A program made the translations under genes and the position numbers. Shown here one piece after another: positions 2,397-8,421 of a DNA stretch of 64,000 bases. The notes beneath the pieces are model-generated. The model saw only the letters and a list, made by a program, of their open reading frames with translations. It had not been told where the DNA came from and did not search any database. How positions within the stretch are numbered: position 1 is the first letter of the stretch; each line of letters starts with the position of its first letter. The DNA is from Escherichia phage KIT01. The stretch lies in sequence record AP019521.1, one strand, 5' to 3'.

Positions 2397-3527
2397 TTAT
2401 GGATAGAAATAAATTATTCCTGCCTCCAATGAGGTTTTGTGTACGATATATCCATTACGAGATTCTTGTACATCAACCTCTGGATAGTCGGTAATCATTT
2501 TTTGAAGTGTATATCGGTGCAAATAATACGGGCTATCCGGGTCATCGGTTTTCCAGTCTTTGCCTTCAAGAGTCATTTTCTGGATTTCATCCATAACCCA
2601 CCATCCACACCAGATATAAGCTGAATTGCGAACTGGCAATGGATGTACATAAGGTAATTCACCATCTGGAACTGGTGCGACTTTAGCCGTGACTGTCACA
2701 TTACCGGTTTTGGTAACGGTCGCAGGGTTATAATCAGTCGCCGAAACCACAACAGAAACTTCAATAACCTGTGAACCTTCAGTGTTTGTATCGATTGCTA
2801 GAGTATCTGTGGTACCAGCAATACCAATGCCATCTTTCTTCCAAGAATAAGCAAAAGTGGCACCACTAGGCGCACCTGCTACGGTAGCTTTAAAAGAAGC
2901 CGGAGTTCCTTCAGGTACATTAATAGAGGCTGGCGTTAAATTAACAGAAACCCCAGACATTGTTTTCTTAACAAAAGAAACCGTTATGCCTTTAGCAGCA
3001 GTTGCTGAACCGTATTCCGGAGAGGTAACAGTAACTTCACAATTCAAGGTATAATTTGCTTCGGCTGCTTCAGTTAGTGTAATAGTTTTAGAGGTTTGGC
3101 CTGAAATTACGGTGGTATTTCGTTTCCAAACATAATTAATTGTTGCATCAGCAGGAGCACCGGTTACATTAGCCGTAACAACTTGGGATTGGCCGACTTC
3201 TTTAGAAACGGAAGTAGGGTCCAAAGCCAAAGAGATATCCATAGTTTTATTAGATACGGTAACTTCAAAGGTGTCTTCGGCTGTCTCAAGAGGGCCCGCA
3301 TCGCCAGGGTCAGAAGTTACTACTACTTTTATAACTTTCTTACCCGCAGGAGCAGCACCCGTATATCTCAAAACATTAGTGGTTTCTGGGTTAGCAGCTC
3401 CATCAACGGTCCATACATATGCAATGGTTCCCCCTGTTACAACTGGGTCGGTTGCGGTAGCAGTGTAATTAGCGCTTTCGCCTATTTTCATAGACGCTGC
3501 GCCGGCTATACTTACAGTAAAGGCCAT
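2397..3527 (-). CDS. hoc: Hoc, highly immunogenic outer capsid decoration protein
   Basis: 376 aa; near-collinear match to remembered T4 Hoc including C-terminal YVHPLP...AYIWCGWWVMDEIQKMT...YPEVDVQESRNGYI. Confidence 0.93.
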   Translation of the reverse strand: MAFTVSIAGAASMKIGESANYTATATDPVVTGGTIAYVWTVDGAANPETTNVLRYTGAAPAGKKVIKVVVTSDPGDAGPLETAEDTFEVTVSNKTMDISLALDPTSVSKEVGQSQVVTANVTGAPADATINYVWKRNTTVISGQTSKTITLTEAAEANYTLNCEVTVTSPEYGSATAAKGITVSFVKKTMSGVSVNLTPASINVPEGTPASFKATVAGAPSGATFAYSWKKDGIGIAGTTDTLAIDTNTEGSQVIEVSVVVSATDYNPATVTKTGNVTVTAKVAPVPDGELPYVHPLPVRNSAYIWCGWWVMDEIQKMTLEGKDWKTDDPDSPYYLHRYTLQKMITDYPEVDVQESRNGYIVHKTSLEAGIIYFYP

Positions 3528-6044: not shown

Positions 6045-6212
6045 CTAAAGTAGTAATTGGGTTTCGTTCAGCTGTTCTTCAGTGTTTTCCGTAACTGGCA
6101 AGCTTTGAACGTAATTATAGCATGAGCCCGGATGAACCGGACCTTTTTCTGTTTCAACAACCAATGCAGCATCGATTGGAGTTTTACAGACAACGCAAAT
6201 CTTATCTGACAT
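6045..6212 (-). CDS. uvsY.-2: UvsY.-2-like small Cys-containing protein
   Basis: 55-aa ORF (MSDKICVVCKTPIDAAL...) not in ORF track; RBS AGGAGA 7 nt upstream; position matches T4. Confidence 0.6.
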   Translation of the reverse strand: MSDKICVVCKTPIDAALVVETEKGPVHPGSCYNYVQSLPVTENTEEQLNETQLLL

Positions 6213-6240: not shown

Positions 6241-6339
6241 CTATTTATTACTTGCTAAAGCAGCATTAATGAATTCTTGGAGAAGTTTCATCTTATCGGC
6301 ATCTACTTTAATGGGTTTGGTATTTTTAGTACGTCTCAT
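6241..6339 (-). CDS. uvsY.-1: UvsY.-1-like small protein
   Basis: 32-aa ORF (MRRTKNTKPIKVDADKMKLLQEF...) with start overlapping the uvsY stop (ATGA). Confidence 0.45.
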   Translation of the reverse strand: MRRTKNTKPIKVDADKMKLLQEFINAALASNK

Positions 6340-6767
6340 TTTTCACCTGCTTCAAATTTCCTGAGCTCCAACATATTCTTTAACGAGAACCCTCTAGCTT
6401 TGACTGCATCAAGTGCTGAACTACAAAAGTCCTGTAATAAAGCCCAATACTGAATTGATGTATCGATTTTAATTACACTAGAATCCGCAGCCATAACGGT
6501 CTTTAATTCAGACTTCTCATATTGGTCCATACAAACCTCATCACCAGGCTCTCCACGTCCCGTGTAGAAATCTAATCGCTTCTTAAGTGAGGTCTTTTTC
6601 TGGATTTCTAATCTCATTATTTCTTTCTTGCAATTCGTATACAGCCTTAGCCATTTGCTGTGCAGCAAAACGTTGTTCTGTACTTCATATTGTAAACGAG
6701 TTCCATCAATCTTTAAATCCTCGTCTAATGCATCTTGAAACGACTCCAACTTGTACTCAATTTCCAT
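6336..6767 (-). CDS. uvsY: UvsY recombination mediator
   Basis: 143 aa; matches T4 UvsY (LQYE..NNV.L.SKWL..., YEKSE.KTV..AD..V.K.DTS.QYW). Confidence 0.9.
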   Translation of the reverse strand: MEIEYKLESFQDALDEDLKIDGTRLQYEVQNNVLLHSKWLRLYTNCKKEIMRLEIQKKTSLKKRLDFYTGRGEPGDEVCMDQYEKSELKTVMAADSSVIKIDTSIQYWALLQDFCSSALDAVKARGFSLKNMLELRKFEAGEK

Positions 6768-7383
6768 TGTATTTCCTCATAAAAGTAATAACCATACCAT
6801 CATACCACACTTCCGGATATTTGTGTTCTATTGCTATAGTTCTAAACCTTCTAGCTTTAGGCATTCCAGATTCTACCCATAATGAATACAGTTCATCCTC
6901 TTTATCCCAAGGTATATTTTTACTTCGTCTGTTTGGCCTTGGTACATCTTTAGCCCAATGGACCTGATGCTTGAATTTTTCCTTCATTGTTTTAGATTGC
7001 CGTTCTCTACCTATCTTAGTAGAAGGATTTTTCTTTCCTAACATAGGATGAACTTCCATTAATTGCCCGCCGACACCGCCTTTAGCTATATTAACACAAT
7101 TACTAAATTTAATTTTGGCTTCGCCAACTAAGAGTTCTTCAAACTCAGCATTCAATTCTAGGGTAGGTTGAACGGACAGAATATGTTTTACAAATCTAGT
7201 ATTTGGGTTTTTCTTGGCAGATTTTATAAAAATACCAGACCCTAAATAACTATTATTTAGAGAAGTGCTGGTGTGCTTACCAAAATAGACCCAGTAATTA
7301 TTATCTGTAAATATTTCTGTCATATAACAATAATGTATTTTATCTCTCATCGCATGTTTCCTGTGTAATAACCATAGGACCAT
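6757..7383 (-). CDS. GIY-YIG-like putative homing endonuclease (Seg-like), basic C-terminus
   Basis: N-terminal IHY...(14 aa)...VYFG resembles a GIY-YIG motif; Lys/Arg-rich C-terminal half; sits between uvsY and gene 25, which are adjacent in T4. Likely true start is the internal ATG at about 7350 (MRDKIHY...). Confidence 0.5.
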   Translation of the reverse strand: MVLWLLHRKHAMRDKIHYCYMTEIFTDNNYWVYFGKHTSTSLNNSYLGSGIFIKSAKKNPNTRFVKHILSVQPTLELNAEFEELLVGEAKIKFSNCVNIAKGGVGGQLMEVHPMLGKKNPSTKIGRERQSKTMKEKFKHQVHWAKDVPRPNRRSKNIPWDKEDELYSLWVESGMPKARRFRTIAIEHKYPEVWYDGMVITFMRKYNGN

Positions 7384-7408
7384 TATACACTATTCATTTG
7401 AACAGCAA

Positions 7409-7798
7409 TTAACCACTCTGTGAGAGCTGGATTCTAATTTGCTCTAATGTATCAGGGTCATCAACTATACTAAACTGAACCGTTACTATAATCGAGTTAT
7501 CATCGTACACGGGTGTCACACCTACAGCTAGAGCAGAAATTCTAGGTTCGAAGTTCCGCACGGCGGAAACTATATTACGCTTAATGGTATCCGTGATTAA
7601 TGGGGTGATATTCTCAAACAATTGGTTACTGATGTCACAACCAAATTCCGGCATAAAAGGGCGTGAACCTTTGCGAGTAGTAATAATGCCTAACAAACTA
7701 TTTTTTACTGCACGAGCACCTGTAGCTTTAGCGACGTCTCTATTCCAAGACGTCCTCATTTCAGGGTCTAAATCTGAATACATTTTATTGATATTCAT
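7409..7798 (-). CDS. 25: gp25 baseplate wedge protein
   Basis: 129 aa; matches T4 gp25 (NINK.YSD.DPEM...NSLLGIITTRKGSRPF.PEFGCD). Confidence 0.95.
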   Translation of the reverse strand: MNINKMYSDLDPEMRTSWNRDVAKATGARAVKNSLLGIITTRKGSRPFMPEFGCDISNQLFENITPLITDTIKRNIVSAVRNFEPRISALAVGVTPVYDDNSIIVTVQFSIVDDPDTLEQIRIQLSQSG

Positions 7799-8421
7799 TA
7801 CATCACCTTAAAGAACTCTTTAAGTCCCTCAATAACGTGGACGGTATGTTCACCACATTCACAAGAAATAGGTATGGCCAAAATAGGCTTAGGGGTAACT
7901 AGTGCATCATAAACTTCTTTTATATCTTTTTCTGTTATCACAGAATAAAGGTCATCAAGTTCCGCATCGCTTAAATCGGAAAGAAGAAGCTTTTCGCCTG
8001 CAGAAGTTAAAATATAATCGATACACCCTGCGACCATCATAGCTCTATTTTTATCTTCAAAGAGTTTAGGGTATCTGAAAACAATTTTAAAGTTGCCAAA
8101 GTCTTTAATAACATCCGGCTCTTTGCCCAATGTTGCGCGAGTTAGTGTCATAGGGACAACCTGTGAGCGACCACAACTACAACTCCACTCACGTTCTATA
8201 TTCACTTCAGCTAATGAATGGGCCCACAGGTTTATCACCAGGAGCTCAGATTCTTGCTTGTTTAAATCACGAGCATCTGTACAATTCGAAATGAGTTCAT
8301 TGATAAAGGACTCTATTCTGCCTTCTAATTTAGCTTGGAGCAAGTCCTTATACTCTCTGAGGGTAAATGCTCTGCATTTTATGGTTTTGTTTTTAATTTT
8401 TACGTCAAAAGTATAATTCAT
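7798..8421 (-). CDS. 26: gp26 baseplate hub protein
   Basis: 207 aa; synteny and size as T4 gp26; overlaps gene 25 start. Confidence 0.85.
   Translation of the reverse strand: MNYTFDVKIKNKTIKCRAFTLREYKDLLQAKLEGRIESFINELISNCTDARDLNKQESELLVINLWAHSLAEVNIEREWSCSCGRSQVVPMTLTRATLGKEPDVIKDFGNFKIVFRYPKLFEDKNRAMMVAGCIDYILTSAGEKLLLSDLSDAELDDLYSVITEKDIKEVYDALVTPKPILAIPISCECGEHTVHVIEGLKEFFKVM

What the first reader, a model, noticed from the sequence alone, without database searches (positions are those of the whole stretch)
6757..7383. Putative GIY-YIG homing endonuclease inserted between uvsY and gene 25
uvsY and gene 25 are adjacent in T4 as far as I recall. Here a 200-aa basic ORF with a GIY-YIG-like N-terminal motif (IHY...VYFG) and a Lys/Arg-rich C-terminal half sits between them, and no seg-like gene is seen between inh and uvsW. 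It looks like a freestanding mobile endonuclease that could drive marker exclusion of flanking recombination and baseplate genes.
Basis: partly seen in the sequence, partly recalled or inferred. Interest (0 to 1): 0.45.

Follow-up and report, generated by a model that had tools for sequence, protein, structure and literature searches.

The report
SegE-like homing endonuclease gene at uvsY
A selfish, mobile DNA-cutting enzyme gene of a well-known phage type (GIY-YIG, SegE-like) has been inserted just inside the start of the recombination gene uvsY of a T4-like (Dhakavirus) phage. It is real and neatly built, but it is an ordinary example of a known kind.

Summary
A 208-codon ORF lies at 6757-7383 on the minus strand, between gene 25 (7409-7798) and uvsY (6336-6767). 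Its real start is almost certainly the ATG at 7350, giving 197 aa.

All 588 related phage records lack it, through a clean 577-bp gap at 6766-7342. Six orthologous lineages (42-99% identity) from at least three genera all hold it at this same site.

No Pfam, NCBIfam or PDB sequence search names it directly. Several indirect lines place it in the family:
- It is homologous to T4 SegE (BLASTP 2e-13; hhalign 97%).
- Of its 64 aligned relatives, 19 hit GIY-YIG and 18 hit SegE_GIY-YIG.
- Y9, Y22-x-G24, E71 and N87 align with I-TevI Y6, Y17-x-G19, E75 and N90.

The gene is inserted in frame after about codon 3 of uvsY. It takes over uvsY's MotA-type middle promoter, ribosome-binding site and ATG, and supplies uvsY with a new site and start inside its own last codons.

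The verdict is a freestanding Seg-type homing endonuclease gene, a new member of a known kind. Cleavage, target site and mobility are untested.

The parts
6757..7350 (-). Coding sequence of the SegE-like GIY-YIG endonuclease (197 aa, start ATG at 7350-7348, stop TGA at 6759-6757)
   Evidence: ORF listing. P0001 at 99% identity is called at 197 aa. Ortholog alignment A1. SegE homology. Purifying selection.
7351..7383 (-). Eleven-codon 5' extension produced by calling from the first ATG. It is probably untranslated leader, because its ATG overlaps the -10 box.
   Evidence: Sequence read directly. This stretch is identical to the uvsY leader of the ORF-less phage LHE83.
7060..7350 (-). N-terminal GIY-YIG catalytic domain (about aa 1-97), with strands at 5-14, 19-28 and 52-61 and helices at 40-46 and 64-81. 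Key residues are Y9, Y22, G24, Y35-x-G37-S38-G39, E71 and N87.
6961..7053 (-). Basic linker with one long helix (aa 112-128). It lies where relatives carry NUMOD3 repeats.
   Evidence: AF2 secondary structure. NUMOD3 is found in 32 of 65 relatives. The profile alignment shows the relatives' repeats collapsed to one unit here.
6769..6915 (-). C-terminal three-helix DNA-binding module (aa 146-194, helices 148-160, 166-175 and 184-194). It is Myb/homeodomain-like and has no Pfam family.
7382..7409 (-). MotA-box plus -10 middle-type promoter (ATTGCTGTTCA-N11-TATAAT), homologous to the T4 uvsY middle promoter that is part of oriF. It now drives the endonuclease gene followed by uvsY.
   Evidence: Regex scan. 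Conserved TGCT..TATAAT block in ORF-less and ORF-containing phages, including T4. T4 record annotation of oriF. Description of oriF in PMC3016281.
7357..7362 (-). Ribosome-binding site AGGAAA. It was originally uvsY's and is now used by the endonuclease gene.
   Evidence: Identical leader plus ATGAG in LHE83, IME281, JS98, Bp7, dhaeg, AnYang and NC-G, where it precedes uvsY.
6772..6778 (-). Replacement ribosome-binding site GAGGAAA for uvsY. It is encoded inside the endonuclease's conserved F-M-R-K codons.
   Evidence: Conserved in the window, L003, L004, L008, VPA32 and GRNsp7.
6757..6767 (-). 11-nt overlap between the endonuclease stop and the new uvsY start
   Evidence: ORF coordinates. The same 11-nt overlap is seen in L008, VPA32, GRNsp7 and L017.
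6336..6767 (-). uvsY (143 aa). Its first three codons (M-S-K) are replaced by a new ATG.
   Evidence: Pfam UvsY 4e-53. N-terminal comparison with ORF-less Dhakaviruses.
6732..6765 (-). Patch of 10 third-position differences from LHE83 directly next to the insert (9 are synonymous changes in shared uvsY codons 2-12; the 10th, at 6765, lies in the new start codon). Three (uvsY nt 6, 12, 15) are unique to the ORF-containing allele. Those at nt 24-36 match the Bp7/AnYang type. From nt 39 on the sequence is LHE83-type.
   Evidence: Mismatch map. Seven-phage comparison.
6766..7342 (.). The 577-bp segment absent from ORF-less relatives (insert boundaries are ambiguous by a few bases)
   Evidence: Pairwise alignments with LHE83.

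Best explanation
This is a freestanding Seg-type (SegE-like) GIY-YIG homing endonuclease gene carried by a Dhakavirus (JS98-like T4 relative).

Shown:
- It is a 577-bp insertion placed in frame after about codon 3 of uvsY.
- It has no expression signals of its own. It uses uvsY's conserved MotA-type middle promoter, ribosome-binding site and ATG.
- Its last codons (F-M-R-K) encode a new GAGGAAA ribosome-binding site and an ATG, so uvsY is translated from an 11-nt overlapping start.
- The protein has an N-terminal GIY-YIG nuclease domain, a basic helical linker, and a C-terminal Myb-like three-helix DNA-binding module.

Inferred:
- In a mixed infection with an ORF-less relative, the C-terminal part binds a site in or near the 25-uvsY junction of the ORF-less genome.
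- The GIY-YIG domain then makes a double-strand break.
- The phage's own UvsX/UvsY recombination repairs the break from the ORF-containing genome. This copies in the endonuclease gene and co-converts short flanking tracts, which is localized marker exclusion of the uvsY and gene 25 alleles.
- The carrier genome is protected because the insertion splits, and partly recodes, the otherwise invariant uvsY start region.
For: Insertion polymorphism:
- 588 related phage records match the flanks, and none covers the ORF.
- There is a clean 577-bp gap against LHE83.

Site specificity:
- Every ortholog found sits directly 5' of uvsY, and gp25 is seen upstream wherever the contig reaches that far. These are P0001 99%, P0002 74%, P0003 65%, VPA32 57%, GRNsp7 55% and P0005 42%.
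- They come from Dhakavirus, Karamvirus, Tequatrovirus and unclassified contigs.

Family:
- T4 SegE BLASTP gives E 2e-13 over 172 aa; hhalign gives 97.3%.
- An exhaustive HMMER search gives 3787 relatives.
- Of the 65 aligned sequences (the ORF itself plus 64 relatives), 19 hit Pfam GIY-YIG, 18 hit SegE_GIY-YIG and 32 hit NUMOD3.
- The invariant columns are G24, Y35, G37, G39, E71, N87 and G91.
- hhalign to the verified I-TevI catalytic domain pairs Y9/Y6, Y22-G24/Y17-G19, E71/E75 and N87/N90.

Fold:
- The AF2 model has pLDDT 88.5.
- The BFVD search gives 79 hits with E<=1e-3, dominated by phage seg-like endonucleases.

Selection: pN is 0.17-0.36 against pS 0.66-0.82.

Start takeover:
- The ORF's leader plus ATGAG is identical to uvsY's in seven ORF-less Dhakaviruses.
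- The L004 ortholog begins M-S-K like Dhakavirus UvsY. The GRNsp7 ortholog begins ATGAAATTAG like T4 uvsY's ATGAGATTAG.

Mosaic patch next to the insert.

Seg biology is taken from PMC2988022: intronless homing, middle promoters and co-conversion.
Against: - No direct hit to Pfam GIY-YIG or SegE_GIY-YIG, to NCBIfam, or to PDB sequences for this protein.
- The canonical catalytic Arg (I-TevI R27) has no alignable counterpart, because that helix is deleted in this subfamily. T4 SegE, listed as active in PMC2988022, shows the same deletion.
- The ortholog identities mirror those of gp25, gp26 and UvsY. There is therefore no sign of recent transfer between genera. The pattern also fits an old resident that is often lost.
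- Most of the synonymous patch is ordinary Dhakavirus polymorphism, and only three changes are unique.
- No relative was found in IMG/VR or in JGI metagenome contigs, so there is no sign that it is spreading widely.
- Nuclease activity, target site and preferential inheritance were not and cannot be tested here.
Confidence: 0.85

Rival explanations
1. It is an old, vertically inherited resident of the uvsY locus that has been repeatedly lost, not a currently mobile element. On this view it is retained for a host-level function. Examples would be controlling uvsY translation through the overlapping start, cutting competitors' DNA for exclusion without copying itself, or another DNA-binding role.
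For: - Ortholog identities (75/65/56/54%) follow the same order as gp25 (87/81/67/66%), gp26 and UvsY.
- The 11-nt stop/start overlap and the embedded ribosome-binding site are conserved in five or more lineages.
- Purifying selection is strong.
- The gene is rare in public data.
Against: - Relatives 97% identical in the flanks lack it cleanly and have an intact M-S-K uvsY start. Regenerating that start by deletion would need a base-perfect event.
- The ORF's first codons match the local uvsY start in two different genera. That is what recombination in flanking homology would give.
- Characterised relatives (SegE and other Seg proteins) are homing enzymes.
- Congruent trees are also expected if homing works only between close relatives.
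Confidence: 0.1
2. It is a decaying or catalytically dead endonuclease remnant: a pseudo-enzyme kept only because uvsY's ribosome-binding site and start are embedded in its 3' end.
For: - No alignable catalytic Arg.
- No direct Pfam GIY-YIG hit.
- PMC2988022 notes that embedded signals for essential downstream genes favour retention of seg genes.
Against: - The ORF is full length and intact in all six lineages.
- The catalytic Glu, Asn and both Tyr are invariant or nearly so.
- Selection acts along the whole protein, not just the 3' end.
- T4 SegE lacks the same Arg helix and is listed as active.
Confidence: 0.05

Closest known systems
T4 SegE (freestanding GIY-YIG homing endonuclease between inh and uvsW; targets uvsW of relatives)
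   Same: - Homologous over the catalytic domain and part of the linker: 29% identity over 172 aa, E 2e-13, hhalign 97.3%.
- Same variant motif set: Y-x-G-K-H-S/T ... N-D/N-x-Y-L-G-S-G ... E ... N ... G-G-x-G-G.
- Same size (about 200 aa).
- Freestanding, in the same recombination and baseplate gene neighbourhood.
- Middle-promoter context is typical of seg genes.
   Different: - Different insertion site: inside the start of uvsY rather than between inh and uvsW. This window has no seg gene at the SegE site.
- The C-terminal DNA-binding part is not alignable with SegE's.
- It has no promoter, ribosome-binding site or start codon of its own.
- Its target is unknown.
I-TevI (intron-encoded GIY-YIG homing endonuclease of the T4 td intron; PDB 1LN0/1MK0)
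   Same: - The GIY Tyr, YIG Tyr-x-Gly, catalytic Glu and Asn all align.
- Two-part design, with a nuclease domain and a DNA-binding domain joined by a linker.
   Different: - Not intron-encoded.
- The helix carrying I-TevI R27 is absent.
- No zinc finger, and a different C-terminal DNA-binding module.
- The sequence relationship is detectable only by profile (hhalign 78%, E 1.8e-5).
Orthologs already in GenBank: Klebsiella phage vB_KpnM_VPA32 orf204 ('intron-associated endonuclease'), Enterobacter phage vB_Ent31 ('endonuclease'), Salmonella phage GRNsp7 ('hypothetical protein')
   Same: - Same position between gp25 and uvsY, and for VPA32 and GRNsp7, whose loci were read, the same 11-nt overlap with uvsY.
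- 55-57% identity over about 90% of the length.
   Different: - They are in other genera (Karamvirus, Tequatrovirus).
- None has been studied experimentally, as far as the literature searches show.
- No Dhakavirus in the phage collection carries the gene.
IME281/IME08/IME341/FB 'putative endonuclease' (229 aa), downstream of uvsY in some Dhakaviruses
   Same: - Distant homolog (31% identity, E 1e-18 to 4e-22) with the same domain order. It is the top BFVD structural match.
- It also overlaps uvsY by 11 nt.
   Different: - It sits on the other (3') side of uvsY, where it replaces the small uvsY.-1-like ORF.
- It is absent from this window, which nevertheless carries the IME281-type uvsY 3' end.

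Membership tests
GIY-YIG nuclease superfamily | Core fold: three-stranded antiparallel sheet flanked by helices (beta-beta-alpha-beta-alpha) | tested here: met
   [not shown]
GIY-YIG nuclease superfamily | First motif tyrosine ('GIY') | tested here: met
   Y9 (sequence H-Y-C-Y-M) aligns with I-TevI Y6. It is conserved in at least 90% of the 65 aligned sequences.
GIY-YIG nuclease superfamily | Second motif Tyr-x-Gly ('YIG') | tested here: met
   Y22-F-G24 aligns with I-TevI Y17-V-G19. G24 is invariant and Y22 is conserved in at least 90% of sequences.
GIY-YIG nuclease superfamily | Conserved catalytic Arg (I-TevI R27) | tested here: inconclusive
   hhalign places a 9-residue gap where I-TevI has the R27 helix, so no Arg is alignable. 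T4 SegE has the same gap and the same Y-L-G-S-G motif and is listed as an active enzyme. K25/H26 or K43/K46 might substitute, but this is inference only.
GIY-YIG nuclease superfamily | Metal-binding Glu (I-TevI E75) and conserved Asn (I-TevI N90) | tested here: met
   E71 and N87 are invariant in the 65 sequences and align with E75 and N90.
GIY-YIG nuclease superfamily | Match to Pfam PF01541 or PF19835 at the curated threshold | tested here: not met
   Pfam gives no GIY-YIG hit for this protein even at E<=1. Membership rests on transitive evidence, with 19/65 aligned sequences hitting PF01541 and 18/65 hitting PF19835 at E<=0.01, and on profile and fold comparisons.
Seg-type freestanding homing endonucleases of T4-like phages | Homology to a biochemically characterised Seg protein | tested here: met
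   T4 SegE: BLASTP E 2e-13; hhalign 97.3%.
Seg-type freestanding homing endonucleases of T4-like phages | Located between (or at the edge of) conserved phage genes, not inside an intron or intein | tested here: met
   It lies between gp25 and the body of uvsY. uvsY is not split. It merely has its first three codons replaced.
Seg-type freestanding homing endonucleases of T4-like phages | Presence/absence polymorphism among close relatives at a fixed site | tested here: met
   Absent from all 588 related records. Present at the same site in six lineages.
Seg-type freestanding homing endonucleases of T4-like phages | Separate C-terminal DNA-binding region (NUMOD-type or helix-turn-helix modules) | tested here: met
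   [not shown]
Seg-type freestanding homing endonucleases of T4-like phages | Site-specific double-strand cleavage of the ORF-less allele, and preferential inheritance with co-conversion in mixed infection | not testable with these tools
   There is only indirect evidence: a short mosaic patch beside the insert.

The most novel reading that the evidence does not exclude
The endonuclease gene may have colonised a replication origin. In T4 the uvsY middle promoter plus the AT-rich stretch just downstream is oriF, where the uvsY transcript forms the R-loop that primes replication. Here the insert begins about 30 nt downstream of the start of that conserved promoter, so the gene's very AT-rich 5' end (70-72% AT) would now serve as the unwinding element and its mRNA as the primer. 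Breaks made by the enzyme in ORF-less rivals would then fall in or beside their origin, in the gene for the recombination mediator needed to repair them. Together with the scar of a second seg-like gene at the uvsY 3' end, this would make uvsY/oriF a contested hotspot where selfish nucleases shape origin and recombination-gene alleles.
Probability: 0.12. Interest if true: 0.6.

Novelty: new member of a known kind. Interest (0 to 1): 0.3.

Why it matters
It adds a further insertion site (25/uvsY) to the seven seg sites of T4 listed in PMC2988022. It also gives a clear example of how such a gene can settle without harming its host gene: it borrows uvsY's promoter, ribosome-binding site and ATG, and brings a replacement start for uvsY.

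For annotation, it shows that SegE-like enzymes can escape Pfam and NCBIfam entirely and need profile or fold evidence.

For phage biology and phage-cocktail design, it predicts localized marker exclusion around uvsY and gene 25 in mixed Dhakavirus infections. The enzyme would also be a candidate new site-specific nuclease. Its position in the oriF-equivalent region raises a testable question about origin function.

Tried and rejected
Searches that gave nothing useful:
- PDB sequence searches with the protein and with the 65-sequence profile gave only chance-level hits.
- Scans of IMG/VR and JGI metagenome contigs for further orthologs found none.
- The sigma-70 promoter and terminator scan was at the level of shuffled sequence. 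The relevant promoter is MotA-type and was found by reading and by regex. No late promoter (TATAAATA) lies on the minus strand between 6300 and 7900.

An idea I tested and weakened: I first read the 10 third-position (mostly synonymous) differences beside the insert as target-site recoding. Comparison with seven ORF-less Dhakaviruses showed that most are ordinary polymorphisms shared with the Bp7/AnYang type, and only three are unique. The patch is better described as a short mosaic or co-conversion tract.

Full report
**What is there.**
The window is a T4-like phage of the genus Dhakavirus (JS98 group). Flanking DNA is 93-97% identical to LHE83, QL01, WG01, IME281, JS98 and others. On the minus strand the gene order is:
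- gp26, 7798-8421
- gp25, 7409-7798 (Pfam GPW_gp25, 7e-16)
- the ORF in question, 6757-7383
- uvsY, 6336-6767 (Pfam UvsY, 4e-53)
- a small uvsY.-1-like ORF, then uvsY.-2, 6045-6212

uvsW and uvsW.1 lie on the plus strand.

That ATG (7383-7381) is part of the -10 hexamer of the upstream promoter. The 99%-identical metagenomic protein P0001 is called at 197 aa, and all orthologs align from M12. An AGGAAA ribosome-binding site lies 6 nt before the ATG at 7350. I therefore take 6757-7350 (197 aa, pI 9.7, C-terminal half pI 10.0) as the gene.

**It is an insertion.**
Of 588 phage records that match the flanks, none covers the ORF. Against LHE83 the difference is a clean 577-bp gap at 6766-7342.

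The upstream leader and the first five bases of the ORF (ATGAG) are identical to the leader and start of uvsY in seven ORF-less Dhakaviruses. Those phages all begin uvsY with ATGAGTAAAGAGATTGAATATAA (M-S-K-E-I-E-Y).

In the window, uvsY begins M-E-I-E-Y from a new ATG that lies 11 nt inside the end of the ORF. A GAGGAAA ribosome-binding site precedes it, encoded by the ORF's conserved F-M-R-K codons.

The 74%-identical ortholog in contig L004 still begins M-S-K, which are uvsY's own first three codons. The Tequatrovirus ortholog in GRNsp7 begins ATGAAATTAG, against T4 uvsY's ATGAGATTAG. So the element sits in frame after about codon 3 of uvsY. It has no promoter, ribosome-binding site or start codon of its own, and it supplies uvsY with replacements.

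The only promoter-like element on this strand between 6300 and 7900 is a MotA-box plus -10 arrangement at 7409-7382. It is conserved in ORF-less and ORF-containing phages, including T4.

**It is tied to this site.**
Every ortholog I could find lies directly 5' of uvsY, with gp25 upstream wherever the contig reaches that far.

| Ortholog | Identity | Source |
|---|---|---|
| P0001 (L003) | 99% | Logan contig |
| P0002 (four contigs, L004-L007) | 74% | ENA and Logan contigs |
| P0003 (L008) | 65% | 177-kb contig |
| VPA32 orf204 | 57% | Karamvirus |
| GRNsp7 | 55% | Tequatrovirus |
| P0005 (L017) | 42% | Logan contig |

Most share the same 11-nt overlap with uvsY. In the phage collection only VPA32, Ent31 and GRNsp7 carry it. 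IMG/VR and JGI metagenome scans found none.

Identities among the orthologs follow the same order as gp25, gp26 and UvsY. There is thus no sign of recent jumps between genera. The element looks like a long-standing, sporadically present tenant of this locus. Selection is clearly purifying, with pN 0.17-0.36 against saturated pS 0.66-0.82.

**What the protein is.**
Direct scans give no nuclease call. Pfam gives only sub-threshold Bro-N, PHROGs a weak Ant match, and NCBIfam and PDB sequence searches nothing useful. Deeper tests are consistent with each other:
- BLASTP against T4 SegE, taken from the T4 record, gives E 2e-13 over 172 residues. hhalign of the ortholog alignment against SegE gives 97.3% over the N-terminal 96 columns.
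- An exhaustive HMMER search finds 3787 relatives. Of the 65 aligned sequences (the ORF plus 64 relatives), 19 match Pfam GIY-YIG, 18 match SegE_GIY-YIG and 32 match NUMOD3.
- The invariant columns are G24, Y35, G37, G39, E71, N87 and G91. Y9, Y22, S38 and G92 are conserved at 90% or more.
- hhalign against the I-TevI catalytic domain (E 1.8e-5, 78%) pairs Y9 with Y6, Y22-x-G24 with Y17-x-G19, E71 with E75 and N87 with N90. I verified the I-TevI sequence against PDB 1MK0.
- Against predicted viral structures, 79 hits have E<=1e-3, mostly seg-like or GIY-YIG homing endonucleases.

One canonical feature is missing. The helix that carries I-TevI R27 is deleted. T4 SegE has the same deletion and the same Y-L-G-S-G motif, and it is listed as an active enzyme in the review PMC2988022. 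I therefore treat this as a subfamily trait rather than a sign of decay.

The C-terminal half is a basic helix (aa 112-128), where relatives have NUMOD3 repeats, followed by a three-helix Myb/homeodomain-like bundle (aa 148-194).

**How it most likely works.**
Shown: the anatomy, the insertion polymorphism, the family and fold, and the shared expression signals.

Inferred from established Seg biology (PMC2988022): the gene is transcribed with uvsY from the middle promoter. In a mixed infection the protein binds and cuts the ORF-less allele somewhere in or near the 25-uvsY region. Recombinational repair from the carrier genome then copies the gene in, together with short flanks.

The window shows a possible trace of this. 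Ten third-position differences from LHE83 lie in the 34 nt next to the insert, followed by identity. Comparison with seven ORF-less phages tempers this reading:
- Only three changes (uvsY nt 6, 12, 15) are unique to the ORF-containing allele.
- Those at nt 24-36 match the Bp7/AnYang type.
- From nt 39 on the sequence is LHE83-type.

It is therefore a short mosaic patch consistent with co-conversion, not proof of target recoding. The same kind of patch is seen in GRNsp7 against T4.

**Rivals.**
- An old resident kept for a host-level role and often lost (about 0.1). This fits the congruent trees, but it would need base-perfect deletions to restore the M-S-K start.
- A dead remnant kept only for uvsY's embedded start (about 0.05). 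This is contradicted by conservation of the catalytic residues and by selection along the whole protein.

**Comparison and novelty.**
T4's seg genes occupy seven other sites, and none is at 25/uvsY. This window has no seg-like gene at the SegE site (inh/uvsW) or anywhere else. Orthologs are already deposited but are named only generically and have not been studied. This is a new member of a known kind, with a tidy start-codon takeover.

The most novel reading not excluded concerns the T4 origin oriF. The conserved promoter is the one that, in T4, forms oriF together with a downstream AT-rich unwinding element of no fixed sequence. The insert replaces that downstream stretch with even more AT-rich DNA, 70-72% against 60-68% in LHE83. 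Whether Dhakaviruses use this origin is unknown.

**Verdict.**
Interest is modest at 0.3.

Noticed in passing
window 6336-6410 (minus strand, last ~24 codons of uvsY); compare L001 (IME281) and L002 (LHE83): The 3' end of uvsY (...AVKARGFSLKNMLELRKFEAGEK*) is of the type found in IME281. IME281, IME08, IME341 and FB carry a second, 31%-identical SegE-like endonuclease gene directly downstream of uvsY. The window lacks that gene and returns to the LHE83-type small ORF (MRRTKNTKPIK...) right after the stop. Six ORF-less Dhakaviruses have a different uvsY end (AIKARGFNLKTMHEMRQFEAGK*). This looks like a co-conversion scar, or an immune allele left by a second endonuclease.
   Followed up: partly
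window 7382-7409 (minus strand) and the ~150 nt downstream; T4 locus L011 position 7322: The promoter the endonuclease gene has taken over is the homolog of the T4 uvsY middle promoter, which the T4 record and PMC3016281 describe as part of replication origin oriF (promoter plus an AT-rich unwinding element). The insert replaces the downstream element with DNA of 70-72% AT.
   Followed up: partly
ORF aa 146-194 (window 6769-6915, minus strand); proteins P0009, P0031, P0033, P0039: The C-terminal ~50-aa module (W..yDELy.lW...g.pk..F..iA...GYP.v.Y.gMv..F.rK) has no Pfam family. It recurs in one to three tandem copies behind other SegE-like GIY-YIG domains, and as a stand-alone two-copy protein. 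It appears to be an unnamed DNA-binding repeat of this endonuclease class.
   Followed up: partly
window 6757-7350 versus whole window: The endonuclease gene is more AT-rich (66%) than the window as a whole (60.4%) and than its neighbours uvsY (61.8%) and gene 25 (60%), as is often seen for mobile genes.
   Followed up: no
L013 (phage Bp7) positions 1-6; L002 (LHE83) 3022-3375: Bp7 has an annotated HNH homing endonuclease gene abutting uvsW.1, so the uvsW-uvsY neighbourhood hosts several different mobile nucleases across Dhakaviruses. In the LHE83 record gp26 is annotated as a shortened CDS (354 nt), probably an annotation or frameshift issue.
   Followed up: no
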